Source: Octopus vulgaris (Eukaryota). From it: 64,000 nucleotides of DNA. Position 1 is the first letter of the stretch. Each line of letters starts with the position of its first letter. This document shows positions 8,440-56,857 of the stretch, piece by piece. The notes under the pieces were generated by a model that made no database searches, was not told where the DNA came from, and saw only the letters and a list, made by a program, of their open reading frames with translations. The stretch covers positions 2,108,001 to 2,172,000 of the forward strand of contig OX597827.1 of the NCBI GenBank assembly GCA_951406725.2, given 5' to 3'. The translations under genes and the position numbers were made by a program.

Positions 8440-8697
8440 ATATATATGTCGTAAACGTCTTGTAACACCATTTCAAACCCTCATATATGCCCTTAAATTC
8501 ACACATTATATAGACTATAATATATGCCATCACACATATATACACATTGTCACACATATACGCACGCTCTATCACTCTCCCACGTACACACGCATACACA
8601 CACAAACATAGAAATATATGCACATACATATATATACATAATATATACACTCCTATAATTATGTATTATATATATATATATATACATATATATATGG

Positions 8698-8740
<43 letters not shown>

Positions 8741-8769
8741 ATATATATATGTGTAATATATATATGTAA

Positions 8770-8811
<42 letters not shown>

Positions 8812-9063
8812 TGTGTGTATGACTATATGGGTGACTATAATGTTGGTGATTCAGTCCTTCACTAATTCATTCATGCAATCATTACTCAGCGGGTGGCTCA
8901 CACTTATACAAGTGCGTGCGAAACACTTGAGTAATTACTGTATCAATTGCCAATAATCCACTCTCAATTATTACCTCGACACAATATATCGAGTATTCTT
9001 TCTTTTCTCTTATATGTTCCTTTATATATGTTGTATATGTAGATAAATATGTTTTACACATAA

Positions 9064-9393: not shown

Positions 9394-9744
9394 ATATATA
9401 TGAAAAAACAAGTCAAAAATAGAAAATGCTAAGATGATTTTATAGTGAATCATACCGGTTTCGGTCATTTTGAGACCTTTCAACTGTAACGATTAAATAA
9501 TTAAATTTTGAAAAATTTAGAAAAATTAGAAGAAAGGTTTTTTAAAGGAATACTTCCATAGTAGTGTTCAGATATACACTACTATGGAAGTATTCCTTTA
9601 AAAAAACCTTTCTTCTAATTTTTCTAAATTTTTCAAAATTTAATTATTTAATCGTTACAGTTGAAAAGGTCTCAAAATGACCGAAACCGTACTGAAAGAT
9701 TCACTATAAAATCATGTTAGCATTTTCTATTTTTGACTTGTTTT

Positions 9745-9757
<13 letters not shown>
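9394..9757. repeat. ~175-bp-arm fold-back inverted repeat in (TA)n; each arm carries a hammerhead-like motif
   Basis: Near-perfect reverse-complement arms with loop TCAGATAT at 9568-9575. Confidence 0.95.
9658..9694 (+). ncRNA. Minimal type I hammerhead ribozyme, U3-A8 core variant
   Basis: CAG-UUGAAAA-GGUC(UCAAAAU)GACC-GAAA-CC(G)GUA-CUG: stem I CAG/CUG, stem II GGUC/GACC, GUA site. The mirror arm keeps the palindromic ACCGGU stem III. Confidence 0.6.
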
Positions 9758-10904: not shown

Positions 10905-11713
10905 ATACTGGGTACAGTGAATACATTGTCGTCTAAATACCGGAAAATGAAAATAACACTGACTTATTTTAACAGATATATTTACCAAAATTATATAAAA
11001 AATATCTTGAAATTCTAAAGAGTAAATTTATTCAATAAAATCGCCATTGGCATCAACTACAGCTTCCAGACAACTTCGGAATCTCCTGCAATTCTTCTGG
11101 GTGGTCTTCTTGTTTAAATTGATGAATGCTGCCATAATCTTTGCGCTCAGTTCATCTTTGATGTTACAAGAAGTTTTGTTGGTCTCTCGCTCAATTGCGC
11201 CCTACACATAATAATCAACGAGATTTCAGTCAGAGGAGATAGGTGGCCAGATGTGAGGTGTGATGTGGTCGCAGAAATTGTCTGACAGTCATGACTGGGC
11301 TCTCTTGCTTGTGTGGCATGGTGAGGAATCCAGTTACCAGACATAGGGTCTTCCAGCAGCACATTATTGAGCCAGGGCAGCACTACCTCCTCCAGGCACA
11401 TGATGTTGGCTTCCGTTTTGAATGTGAGACCGTGTGGAAAGGGGAATGGGGGCATAACGCCGCCCTCTCTAGTGATCACTCCAAACATCATGATGTTGAC
11501 TGGATGTTTGATTTTAATCACTCCCGGTGCATGTACGGTCCTCAGTAAAGCTTGTTGTTTCAAAATTTCTGGCAGAATGAACTGTGTCGTGGTTCTGTTT
11601 TTCTCGCAGACGGTACCCATCTGACCCTACCATATTTTGTAGTCGACAAAATCAAAAACAAGCAATGCGCATATGCGAAATTAAAAATGTGAAATGGCAA
11701 CATTGCACCTTGT
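10905..11713 (-). mobile_element. Decayed Tc1/mariner-superfamily transposon (maT/DD37D-like), C-terminal transposase
   Basis: Minus strand reads KHPVNIMMFGVITREGGVMPPFPFPHGL..CLEEVVLPW; after a frameshift RPYVW*LDSSPCHTSKRAQS*LSDNFCDHITPHIWPPISSD*N..DYYV*GAIERETNKTSCNIKDEL. Boundaries approximate. Confidence 0.8.
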
Positions 11714-18583: not shown

Positions 18584-18665
<82 letters not shown>

Positions 18666-18695
18666 CAACAACAACAGCAACGATAATAATAATAA
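18580..18695. repeat. (TAA)n microsatellite
   Basis: Direct repeat. Confidence 0.95.
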
Positions 18696-18696
18696 A

Positions 18697-19205
18697 ATGC
18701 CCTGATGCAGTACCAAGTACTGATTCTCATGGCTTCTGATCTTAACTGATCGGAAGTGTTATCATGTACACGTTTTGGGCTACAACAAATATTCTGCTCA
18801 ATACCACAGATTTGCTTATCAGTTGCTTGACCTTAACCAGTTGAGCATGTTCCTTAGTGGCTGACGACATGTGTATCTCTGATCACGAGCGGATTTAGTG
18901 GGGGAATATCATAGCCAAGTGTTGAGAAGAATGCTCTGGAGTTTGAATAACTCACCTCAAGAAACATGGGTGTTTCGTTCAACATCCTTAAACAACACTT
19001 CTTCAAGGACCTTTTGAACGAGATGGGCTACACGACCTAAATAAAATTCTAACGTGCTGTTTATCTTGATATAAAATCACCATGTCATGCACATATGGTT
19101 GTGATGCATGTGCCTGGTGTACCCTTATCAGAGGGTTAGTCATGATGGGTATACTAGGCATCGTACCCCAGTATTACTTTGATGATATGCACTTCTCTCT
19201 CACTC

Positions 19206-19206
<1 letters not shown>
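18697..19206. mobile_element. ~0.55-kb non-coding element in (TAA)n, copy 1 (more decayed, small deletions)
   Basis: Colinear with 19285-19842; both are bounded by ATGCCCTGA... and ...CTCTCTCACTCA, with (TAA)n on both sides. Confidence 0.85.
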
Positions 19207-19284
<78 letters not shown>

Positions 19285-19287
<3 letters not shown>

Positions 19288-19841
19288 CCCTGACGCAGTA
19301 CCAGGCAGTAGCTCTCATGGCTTCTGATCTTAACTGATTGCAAGTGTTATCATGTACATTGTTTTGTCTTGGTATAAAAGATGGGCTACAGCAAATATTC
19401 TGCTCAATACCACAGATTTGCTTGTCAGTTGTTTGACCTTAACCAGTTGAGCATTTCCCTTAGTGGCTGACGATATGTGCATCTCTGATCACGAGCAGAA
19501 GTAGTGGGGGAGCATCATAGCCATGTGTTGAGAAGGATTCTTTGGGGTTTGAATAATTCACCTCTGGAAACATGGGTGGTTCTTTCAACATCCTTAAACA
19601 ATCCTTATTCAGGGACCTTTTGAGCGGGATGGGCTACTCAACCTGAAGAAAATTCTAACTGGGCCCCACCTGCAAGGTCATGTGCTGTTTATCTTGATAT
19701 GAGATCACCATGTCGCGCACATATGGTTGTGATGCAATGTGCCTGGTGTACCTTTATCAGACGGGTAGTCATGATGGGTATATTGGGCTTCGTATATTTT
19801 ACCCCAGTGTCACTTTGATGGCATGCACTGCTCTCTCACTC

Positions 19842-19842
<1 letters not shown>
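19285..19842. mobile_element. ~0.55-kb non-coding element in (TAA)n, copy 2
   Basis: Colinear with 18697-19206; flanked by (TAA)n at 19206-19284 and 19842-20135. Confidence 0.85.
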
Positions 19843-19903
<61 letters not shown>

Positions 19904-19911
19904 TAATAATG

Positions 19912-19952
<41 letters not shown>

Positions 19953-29314: not shown

Positions 29315-29481
29315 CTGTTAACATCACTTAAACAGTTATTATTTGTTGTCAAAAATTTCGCCGCACCATTTGCATTCTGGTCATCGACACAGTTGTAGAG
29401 GACCCGTGTCAGTGACCAGGTCGCAGTTATGGAGACGAAAATTTTGAAAGTAAATAATAACTGTTTAAGTGATGCTAGCAG
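29315..29481. repeat. Imperfect fold-back repeat related to 56465-56732
   Basis: CATCACTTAAACAGTTATTATTT versus AAATAATAACTGTTTAAGTGATG; inner CTGGTCA..GACAC versus GTGTC..TGACCAG. Confidence 0.8.
29409..29447 (+). ncRNA. Minimal hammerhead ribozyme, G3-C8 core variant
   Basis: UCA-GUGACCA-G-GUC(..)GAC-GAAA-AUUU-UGA: stem I UCA/UGA, palindromic AAUU stem III. Confidence 0.5.
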
Positions 29482-29796
29482 TTTTTGAATTATTTTTGAA
29501 TGGCTGATGTATGTCTTCTACACTGTAACTGTTTTAGTCTCAACGCTCGGTGGCAGATCTAATCTCTTACCTGGTGAGTACATCGCCTGAAATATTCTCG
29601 GTAGCTTTCAAAGAACGTATTTGGATGTTTGATAAGTGTTTTCTTCTCCATAGATTTAATGAAAGCACAGGAAATTGAACGAGGACCAGACACATTCCTA
29701 CACATACATATGTATGTATATCCAAGCATTCATAGTTATGCGTATACACACACTCATAAATTCAAACTGAGCGAAGACCACACGCATGTTTAATTG

Positions 29797-36810: not shown

Positions 36811-36942
36811 ATTTATTTTATAGAAGGAGCTTCTACAGGACTAGAACTGTTTCATTCAAAAGAAATCATCAGGAAGCTTCCTGATGATTTCTTTTGAATG
36901 AAACAGTTCTAGTCCTGTAGAAGCTCCTTCTATAAAATAAAT
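36811..36942. repeat. Perfect 132-bp palindrome centred on AAGCTT (36874-36879)
   Basis: Exact reverse-complement arms, no spacer. Confidence 0.97.
36875..36925 (+). ncRNA. Type I hammerhead ribozyme, canonical C3-G8 core (mirror copy on - strand at 36828-36878)
   Basis: AGCUUC-CUGAUGA-U UUC(UUUU)GAA U-GAA-ACAG(UUCUAGUC)CUGU-A-GAAGCU: 6-bp stem I, 4-bp stem III, GUA site at 36917-36919. Stem II closes with a U-U mismatch. Confidence 0.75.
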
Positions 36943-45644: not shown

Positions 45645-45783
45645 GCGACGAAAATATTTTGATAAATTAAATGTAAGTGTTGAAGTGAATCTAACGGTTT
45701 TTGTGTGTTTCTTAAATGGCTTATAAACACCTTCCACGCTGAATAATTGATCAGGTCAATTGCTATGCAAATACATCTCCGTA
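45645..45783 (+). mobile_element. Single-arm fragment of the 56465-56790 fold-back family
   Basis: GCGACGAAAATATTTTGA..GTTGAAGTGAATC..TGTGTGTTTCTTAAATGGCTTATAAACACCTTCCACGCTG..TACATCTCCGTA is shared. Confidence 0.85.
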
Positions 45784-45807
45784 ATATATATATATATATA
45801 TATATAT

Positions 45808-56400: not shown

Positions 56401-56464
<64 letters not shown>

Positions 56465-56467
<3 letters not shown>

Positions 56468-56732
56468 TGCAGCGTGGAAGGTGTTTGTAAACCATTTAAG
56501 AAACACACAAAAGTCGTTCGATTCACTTCAACATTTAAGTTTAATTTGTCAAAATATTTTCGTCGCTTTAAGACCGCGACCTGTTCACTGACAAAAATCC
56601 GATGCAGCACGGATTTTTGTCAGTGAACAGGTCGCATTTAGCGACGAAAATATTAAACTTAAATGTTGAAGTGAATCGAACGGCTTTTGTGTGTTTCTTA
56701 AATGGCTTATAAACACCTTCCACGCTGCAATT
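56465..56732. repeat. ~130-bp-arm fold-back inverted repeat in (TA)n
   Basis: Arms are reverse complements with small indels; loop ATGCAGCA at 56602-56609. Confidence 0.95.
56545..56595 (-). ncRNA. Minimal type I hammerhead ribozyme, G3-C8 core variant
   Basis: UUUGUCA-GUGAACA-G-GUCGC(GGUCUUAAA)GCGAC-GAA-AAUAUU-U-UGACAAA: 7-bp stem I, 5-bp stem II, palindromic stem III, UUU site. Confidence 0.7.
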
Positions 56733-56789
56733 GTTTTCGTTTCAGCACACGATCTCAGATCAAATTACTTGCTATGCGAGTACATCTCC

Positions 56790-56857
<68 letters not shown>

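What the first reader, a model, noticed from the sequence alone, without database searches (positions are those of the whole stretch)
56465..56790. G3-C8 variant hammerhead family in fold-back arrangement
Seen: the left arm (- strand, 56545-56595) has a well-formed fold with 7-bp stem I, 5-bp stem II, AAUAUU palindrome and a GUGAACA core. The right arm keeps GUCGC/GCGAC with a different loop but has lost the stem I 3' strand. A single-arm copy lies at 45645-45783. Stem retention despite loop change is consistent with structural selection (inference). G3-C8 cores are uncommon among described natural hammerheads.
Basis: partly seen in the sequence, partly recalled or inferred. Interest (0 to 1): 0.75.

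Follow-up and report, generated by a model that had tools for sequence, protein, structure and literature searches.

The report
Swapped-core hammerhead in Penelope retrotransposon fold-back
This mirror-image repeat is an ordinary short insertion of a Penelope-type jumping gene with thousands of copies in this animal genome, but the hammerhead RNA motif it carries has two paired core letters swapped, a natural form kept across old and young subfamilies that likely still cuts weakly, although cutting is untested.

Summary
The left-arm motif is real: type I hammerhead layout, G3-C8 in place of C3-G8, an extra G before stem II, U17. It occurs in at least 6,732 places (0 in the reversed control). 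Longer copies lead to a Penelope-like retrotransposon (RT, Zn-finger linker, C-terminal GIY-YIG). The motif lies in its pseudo-LTR, about 90 nt before the start codon, so it is non-coding. The fold-back is routine for this family: 42 of 80 loci are inverted pairs, 40 of them with one long and one short end. G3-C8 is kept in an old subfamily about 28% diverged in the flanks; sister families carry C3-G8 at the same place and another family U3-A8. Corrections: the right arm's loop comes from another subfamily rather than changing in place; the 45645 copy lacks the core strand; opposite-strand arms cannot form the active dimer. Copies almost always run through the cut site, so the templates were mostly uncut. 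Cleavage is untested. I found natural G3-C8 in no paper I could read, but key papers were unavailable. The scan has already reported this family several times in this genome, and similar swaps in other genomes.

The parts
56465..56602 (-). Left arm: pseudo-LTR copy of the Penelope-like element, clipped by about 10 nt at its 5' end, stopping at the short 3' end
   Evidence: Alignment to the pLTR of L122; end classes
56545..56595 (-). Intact type I hammerhead motif with G3-C8 core, extra G after A9, 5-bp stem II, AAUAUU palindrome; predicted cut between 56552 and 56551
   Evidence: Sequence, motif scan, fold
56582..56588 (-). Core strand G3 U4 G5 A6 A7 C8 A9; G3 at 56588, C8 at 56583
   Evidence: covariation of positions 3 and 8 across families
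56465..56495 (-). First codons of the element's ORF (ATG at 56495-56493), cut off at the short end
   Evidence: Continuous pLTR-to-ORF junction in L122
56601..56792 (+). Right arm: pseudo-LTR copy from the family's common 5' start to the long 3' end; different subfamily haplotype from the left arm
56616..56654 (+). Broken hammerhead: core strand, stem II and GAAA kept; 3-nt loop deletion; 10-nt deletion removes U17 and stem I 3' strand
56733..56792 (+). About 60-nt 'tail' between the short and long 3' ends, inside the ORF start (ATG at 56702)
56405..56462 (.). (TA)n target microsatellite, left flank
   Evidence: 56 of 115 classed ends in the sample abut TA-type runs
56792..56856 (.). (TA)n target microsatellite, right flank
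45645..45785 (+). Second copy, truncated inside stem II (no core strand), internal deletions in the tail, ends in (TA)n
29407..29587 (+). Copy of an older subfamily: G3-C8 core with C7, shorter AAUU palindrome, decayed
29324..29393 (-). Inverted, decayed partner arm of the old-subfamily copy

Best explanation
The feature is a short inverted insertion of a Penelope-like retrotransposon whose terminal repeat carries a type I hammerhead motif with a natural G3-C8 swap, which likely still cuts weakly and only as a dimer or with help from the element's protein. Shown: the element (RT, Zn-finger linker, GIY-YIG), the motif's place in the 5' untranslated part of the pseudo-LTR, two fixed 3' ends inside the ORF start, one long and one short end per inverted pair, and conservation of G3-C8 between subfamilies. 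Inferred: the element's endonuclease nicks both strands in a (TA)n run; reverse transcription starts internally at the two ends, one per strand; both cDNAs copy uncut RNA back to near its 5' start and are joined head to head. The swapped pair keeps the 3-8 tertiary pair, so selection has probably acted on the catalytic fold in the source elements. The copies in this window are passive; only the left motif could fold.
For: Element: copies extended upstream reach an RT/GIY-YIG ORF; 12 of 12 ORF-bearing loci fetched carry the identical G3-C8 motif about 1 kb behind the stop codon; GIY-YIG passes the Pfam cut-off in a 1,025-aa frame; L122 runs from the motif into the ORF. Arrangement: 42 of 80 loci taken in order along contig C1 are fold-backs, 40 long+short, 2 with a truncated arm, none long+long or short+short; this matches the inverted truncated copy and one-sided tail described in PMC8557442 and the two internal start sites in PMC11167929. 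Selection: old against young subfamily, 13 of 13 core positions kept, 43 of 60 flank positions; differences inside the motif fall at N7, loop II, palindrome length and distal stem I, one of them compensated. G3 in 25 and C8 in 29 of 30 old copies. N7 takes A, U, G and C in a fixed G3-C8 frame. The same flanks with non-G3, non-C8 occur 656 times against 35 in control; 47 of the first 100 are C3-G8. In 10 hand-picked motifs the pair is GC 5, CG 3, UA 2, never unpaired. The C3G/G8C double mutant partly restores cleavage in a Penelope-type hammerhead.
Against: No cleavage datum. Copies starting at the predicted cut are rare: 67 pattern hits against 104 at a control site 9 nt downstream, about 54 against about 38 true ends after checking 30 loci each; 8 of the 22 fold-back junctions at the cut are explained by stem I microhomology. 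Co-folding does not give the active dimer; the 6-bp palindrome duplex is worth only -0.2 kcal/mol, and a competing 10-bp pairing that would tie up A13, A14 and U17 is -3.8. The young sister family B thrives with an A9C core change, so the motif may be dispensable. The p value is modest, comes from one pair of majority sequences, and the old copies were found with a query containing the core. Reaching G3-C8 from C3-G8 needs a passage through mismatched states. The RT scores below the Pfam cut-off; the clade was not placed on a tree.
Confidence: 0.62

Rival explanations
1. Same retroelement origin, but the motif no longer cuts: it is kept as a fold or sequence signal (promoter, splice or translation context, protein binding or RNA pairing), and G3-C8 was fixed after catalysis stopped mattering.
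For: Templates were almost always uncut. Hammerhead mutants did not affect insertion in vitro in the anole element, and no reads ended at its cut site. Sister family B carries A9C. The motif lies about 20 nt behind the common 5' start, where promoter or splice constraints could conserve sequence.
Against: Conservation follows the catalytic pattern: N7 and loop II change freely, the core does not, and 3-8 stays paired in every family looked at. The double swap is partly active in vitro.
Confidence: 0.27
2. The fold-back itself is the working unit: a non-autonomous palindromic element or retrozyme whose two hammerhead arms cooperate.
For: Half of the sampled loci are fold-backs; one locus has three direct tandem copies (L019).
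Against: The arms are on opposite strands and a read-through RNA is predicted to be one long hairpin. Junctions differ from locus to locus and the arms always have unequal ends. Long inverted pairs enclosing the ORF follow the same rule.
Confidence: 0.05
3. A chance look-alike of a hammerhead inside a repeat, or a MITE-type DNA transposon with terminal inverted repeats.
For: Rfam models do not recognise it; both strands fold equally well.
Against: It sits where sister families have C3-G8 hammerheads, 92-170 nt before homologous start codons, and is tied to an RT/GIY-YIG ORF. The ends are asymmetric, unlike terminal inverted repeats.
Confidence: 0.03

Closest known systems
Minimal type I hammerheads in pseudo-LTRs of metazoan Penelope-like elements (Cervera and de la Pena 2014, PMC4209133; read parts 1-2 of 4 of the main text and parts 1-2 of 3 of supplement file 2)
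   Same: Place in the pLTR next to an intron-like 3' end, extra nucleotide between A9 and 10.1, G10.1-C11.1, palindromic stem III, U17 (24 of their 56 motifs by my count), pairs on opposite strands 100-700 bp apart, predicted dimer action with low activity.
   Different: Core pair G3-C8; their 56 motifs are 53 C3-G8, 2 U3-A8, 1 U3-G8, none G3-C8, though their descriptor asked for the usual core. Stem I is longer here (7 bp).
Poseidon element PAc of the green anole (Frangieh et al. 2024, PMC11167929; read 12 passages and part 2 of 2 of the main text)
   Same: Two internal reverse-transcription start sites in the ORF start that define the tail; both strands cut and extended; AT-rich target; uncut RNA as template; C3G/G8C double mutant partly active.
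   Different: There G3-C8 is an engineered rescue, here it is the natural state. Here the ORF starts about 90 nt behind the core, not in stem II; the tail is about 60 nt, not 30-40; a Zn-finger linker is present.
Neptune/Nematis-type EN+ Penelope-like elements (Craig et al. 2021, PMC8557442; passages read)
   Same: RT then CX2-5CxxC linker then C-terminal GIY-YIG; partial tandems; inverted 5'-truncated copy; tail at one end; microsatellite targets.
   Different: Clade not placed by tree here; long microsatellite-rich 3' region; swapped hammerhead core.
Natural hammerhead core variants (Perreault et al. 2011, PMC3088659; section on core variation read whole, other passages)
   Same: Natural covariation of the 3-8 pair.
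   Different: They report U3-A8; G3-C8 is not named in the text read (figures not visible).
Non-LTR retrozymes (Li et al. 2026 preprint, 10.64898/2026.07.22.740005; parts 1-2 of 5 read)
   Same: Short hammerhead-bearing units derived from PLE pLTRs.
   Different: Retrozymes are tandem arrays; these copies are mostly dispersed single or inverted insertions with PLE ends.

Membership tests
Type I hammerhead ribozyme | Literal core C3 U4 G5 A6 N7 G8 A9 | tested here: not met
   G3 and C8; Rfam finds no hammerhead
Type I hammerhead ribozyme | Watson-Crick pair between positions 3 and 8 | tested here: met
   G-C here; GC 5, CG 3, UA 2 in 10 hand-picked motifs; 656 against 35 control
Type I hammerhead ribozyme | U4 G5 A6, A9, G10.1-C11.1, G12 A13 A14, A15.1-U16.1, H17 | tested here: met
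   All present in the left arm, H17 = U; kept in the old subfamily
Type I hammerhead ribozyme | Stems I and II | tested here: met
   Left arm 7 and 5 bp; the right arm has lost stem I 3'
Type I hammerhead ribozyme | Stem III, formed between two copies through a palindrome | tested here: inconclusive
   Palindrome kept (6 nt young, 4 nt old), but duplex energy is marginal and co-folding gives another dimer
Type I hammerhead ribozyme | Site-specific self-cleavage after N17 | not testable with these tools
   Only assembled contigs were available; genomic copies show no clear excess of ends at the site
Penelope-like element, EN+ | ORF with RT and C-terminal GIY-YIG endonuclease | tested here: met
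   GIY-YIG 25.4 bits over cut-off 22.6; RT motifs visible incl. YVDD, Pfam RVT_1 only E 0.052
Penelope-like element, EN+ | Pseudo-LTR that repeats the element's 5' end behind the ORF | tested here: met
   Same unit behind the ORF in 12 of 12 loci and in front of the ORF in L122
Penelope-like element, EN+ | Inverted 5'-truncated copy and a tail on one end only | tested here: met
   42 of 80 loci inverted; 40 of 42 long+short; tail about 60 nt, longer than the 30-40 described
Penelope-like element, EN+ | Retained intron near the pLTR | tested here: inconclusive
   Branch-point and acceptor-like sequence just before the unit; splicing not shown
Neptune/Nematis clades | CX2-5CxxC linker before the endonuclease | tested here: met
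   CxxxCxxC in family A and sister family B
Neptune/Nematis clades | Placement by RT phylogeny | not tested
   No named reference proteins were fetched
Non-LTR retrozyme | Tandem array of hammerhead-bearing units | tested here: not met
   Window copies are inverted or single; one three-copy tandem among the first 30 loci
MITE or fold-back DNA transposon | Equal terminal inverted repeats with fixed ends | tested here: not met
   Unequal ends and variable junctions

The most novel reading that the evidence does not exclude
The G3-C8 hammerhead is an active natural ribozyme whose palindromic stem III also couples two element RNAs, so that one insertion is written from two templates primed at the two fixed sites on opposite strands: a hammerhead dimer acting as the pairing device of two-ended Penelope insertion. 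It fits the one-long-one-short rule (40 of 42), the 6 of 35 typed arm pairs that come from different subfamilies (this locus among them), the kept palindrome and the uncut templates. The milder claim, an active natural G3-C8 hammerhead, I put at about 0.55 (interest about 0.55).
Probability: 0.13. Interest if true: 0.78.

Novelty: new variant of a known kind. Interest (0 to 1): 0.42.

Why it matters
The 3-8 swap is a classic laboratory proof of the hammerhead active-site pair; here a retrotransposon lineage has used it for a long time, in a genome where related elements carry C3-G8 and U3-A8. That gives a natural series for an open question: whether Penelope-type hammerheads are kept for cutting or for another role. 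It also means that searches demanding CUGANGA miss thousands of motifs, so reports of hammerhead-less elements need a re-check. The arm statistics (one long, one short, sometimes from two subfamilies) give a genomic test of the two-site priming seen in vitro. The fold-back itself is ordinary.

Tried and rejected
Rfam: no match at gathering score in the window; the E-value hits at the locus are miRNA-like scores from the long inverted repeat and TA runs, rejected. Coding constraint on the core: a 68-codon open frame crosses the unit, but the true start codon lies behind the motif and the 8-nt and 9-nt loop variants shift that frame, rejected. L056 looked like pLTR-ORF-pLTR by spacing but is a duplicated block without the ORF. 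Expression: no RNA holder listed on record; the runs are contigs and show no start or end. Contigs of four runs under four organism labels list no other letter at positions 3 or 8 at 5%; labels were not checked, so this is a hint only. Metagenome scan with the G3-C8 pattern: 0 hits. A loose G3-C8 pattern gave 957 against 788 in control, so only its listed family members were used, not the count. Excess of copies starting at the cut site: not found. Co-folding did not support the active dimer. No protein fold or complex job was run. Papers not held: Lunse et al. 2017 (three ids tried), Przybilski and Hammann 2007, Hammann et al. 2012, Martick and Scott 2006; supplement file 1 of PMC4209133 and figure images could not be seen, and any of these may show a natural G3-C8.

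Full report
Observation. The minus strand at 56545-56595 reads as a type I hammerhead: 7-bp stem I, GUGAACA, one unpaired G, 5-bp stem II, GAAA, the palindrome AAUAUU and U17. Stems I and II are the predicted fold (z -2.6), but the other strand folds as well. The right arm has a 3-nt loop deletion and a 10-nt deletion that removes stem I 3'. The copy at 45645-45785 starts inside stem II and lacks the core strand; an older relative with GUGACCA lies at 29407-29587. Rfam reports no hammerhead. The genome is 2.8 Gb in 227 contigs; a cephalopod is my inference from size and repeats, and earlier scan notes call it octopus. The 20-mer spanning the core occurs 6,323 times and the two-part motif 6,732 times, 0 in each reversed control.

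The host element. Some copies continue upstream through a microsatellite-rich stretch. [quoted passage not shown] A protein search gave 144 scored matches; I fetched 12 of this family and 8 of a sister family. All 12 carry the identical G3-C8 motif about 1 kb behind the stop codon. The longest frame (1,025 aa) passes the Pfam GIY-YIG cut-off; RVT_1 is below cut-off. In L122 the unit runs on into the ORF: acceptor-like AG, hammerhead, start codon 92 nt after the core, then coding sequence. So the unit is the pseudo-LTR of a Penelope-like element of Neptune/Nematis type (linker criterion from PMC8557442; no tree made), and the hammerhead is non-coding.

The fold-back. I fetched the first 80 loci on contig C1 from the list; they are conditioned on one intact 20-mer. 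All 80 hold the unit; 42 are inverted pairs. Of 122 arms, 65 end at a long end, 50 at a short end about 60 nt earlier, 7 elsewhere. Of the 42 pairs 40 are long+short, 2 long+truncated, none long+long or short+short; 56 of 115 classed ends abut TA runs. Large inverted pairs around the ORF obey the same rule. An inverted truncated copy and a one-sided tail are described for these elements (PMC8557442, passages), pairs of hammerheads on opposite strands too (PMC4209133), and two internal priming sites in the ORF start were shown in vitro, with both strands extended (PMC11167929). The fold-back is therefore ordinary. Of 52 matches to the unit's first bases, 7 continue into the upstream sequence by rule (one more by eye), at least 6 are the partner arm read backwards, and the rest begin there, 11 with a G before AGATG; a transcription start with a copied cap is my inference.

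The two arms. The right arm's loop class and linked sites match the short-loop subfamily, the left arm's another. Among pairs with both loops typed, 4 of 14 in the best-hit set (8 untyped; set chosen by likeness to the left arm) and 2 of 21 in the C1 set (21 untyped) join these two subfamilies; 9 of 9 pairs of a third subfamily agree. This suggests two template copies per insertion, but a source tandem with two pLTR types, later conversion or repeated loop mutation are not excluded.

Is G3-C8 selected? Copies decay without selection, so I compared source lineages. Thirty loci of the old subfamily (30 of 42 matches) have G3 in 25 and C8 in 29. Against the young subfamily 13 of 13 core positions are the same and 43 of 60 flanking non-coding positions (p 0.022); changes inside the motif are N7, loop II, a sixth pair in stem II, palindrome length and distal stem I, with one compensated pair. 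The query contained the core, which favours this result. N7 is A, U, G or C within G3-C8 members. The same flanks with neither G3 nor C8 occur 656 times against 35; by my count of the first 100: 47 C-G, 27 U-G, 10 U-A, 4 A-U, 12 unpaired. Of the 12 loci returned, 7 look like related pLTRs; in four checked by script the core lies 113-170 nt before a start codon like that of sister family B. Family B (55% identical over 815 aa) has C3-G8 with A9C; a further family has U3-A8 in 13 of 30 GIY-YIG loci. In 10 hand-picked motifs the pair is GC 5, CG 3, UA 2; these are related sequences and few events. G3-C8 is most simply a derived state of one lineage.

Does it cut? Untested. For: the double swap partly rescues a Penelope-type hammerhead, which needed protein to cut; a G3-C8 variant is mentioned as active in PMC3884650 (passage, data not shown). 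Against: ends at the predicted cut are rare, 67 hits against 104 at a control site; 24 of 30 against 11 of 30 were true 5' ends, about 54 against 38, and 8 of the former sit on stem I microhomology. Well under one copy in a hundred starts at the cut, so templates were mostly uncut, as in the anole element. The palindrome duplex is marginal and competes with a longer pairing. RNA data gave nothing on ends.

Novelty. Eight paper searches were answered; none listed a natural G3-C8. The 56 motifs of Cervera and de la Pena include none and Perreault et al. name U3-A8 only; passages of PMC13725137 and PMC6765202 added nothing. Lunse 2017, Hammann 2012, Przybilski 2007 and Martick 2006 were not held, so absence from print is not established. 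Earlier notes of this scan describe the same family in this genome and similar swaps elsewhere; they agree but are not independent, and I reached my reading before seeing them.

Verdict. A new variant of a known kind: an ordinary Penelope-like insertion (about 95% sure) with an unusual, conserved core pair (about 88% a true hammerhead descendant, about 55-60% still able to cut). Interest 0.42.

Noticed in passing
L132-L139, e.g. L135 1837 and 6425: Young sister PLE family with intact 1,312-aa ORFs whose hammerhead has C3-G8 but C in place of A9 and a non-palindromic stem III loop; 7 of 8 loci show it.
   Followed up: partly
L239-L260, e.g. L243 2668: Another PLE family (781-aa frames) with a U3-A8 hammerhead, no extra nucleotide and an ACAUGU palindrome, so three kinds of 3-8 pair occur in one genome.
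   Followed up: partly
one search list; L145, L150, L151: Many related motifs read U3-G8 (27 of 100) or U3-A8 (10 of 100); one family may carry a wobble pair as its source state.
   Followed up: no
window 56465-56792; L003, L018, L023, L163, L178: The two arms of one insertion belong to different subfamilies, hinting at two templates per insertion.
   Followed up: partly
L152-L231: Most short copies begin within a few bases of one site, often behind an extra G, as if they were complete copies of the first 145-207 nt of a capped RNA.
   Followed up: partly
L019 1160-1645: Three direct tandem copies about 167 nt apart, each with a whole hammerhead: the kind of locus where a dimer could form in one transcript.
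   Followed up: no
L162, L164, L198, L199, L202, L203, L206, L224: Eight fold-backs share the same arm starts, ends and gap, suggesting that one fold-back was itself multiplied.
   Followed up: no
window 9394-9756, 36811-36942, 8593-8821: Other self-inverted repeats in the window (93%, 100% and 76%); nature not examined.
   Followed up: no
window 18613-19286 and 19206-19922: A direct duplication of about 600 nt at 84% identity.
   Followed up: no
window 11147-11626 (minus): Decayed Tc1/mariner-type transposase fragment, judged from the translation alone.
   Followed up: no
L057 about 1400-2760: A mariner-type element inserted in the PLE's 3' microsatellite stretch, just before the hammerhead unit.
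   Followed up: no
L059 (minus, 773-aa frame): An unrelated RT/GIY-YIG retroelement ORF next to a family copy.
   Followed up: no
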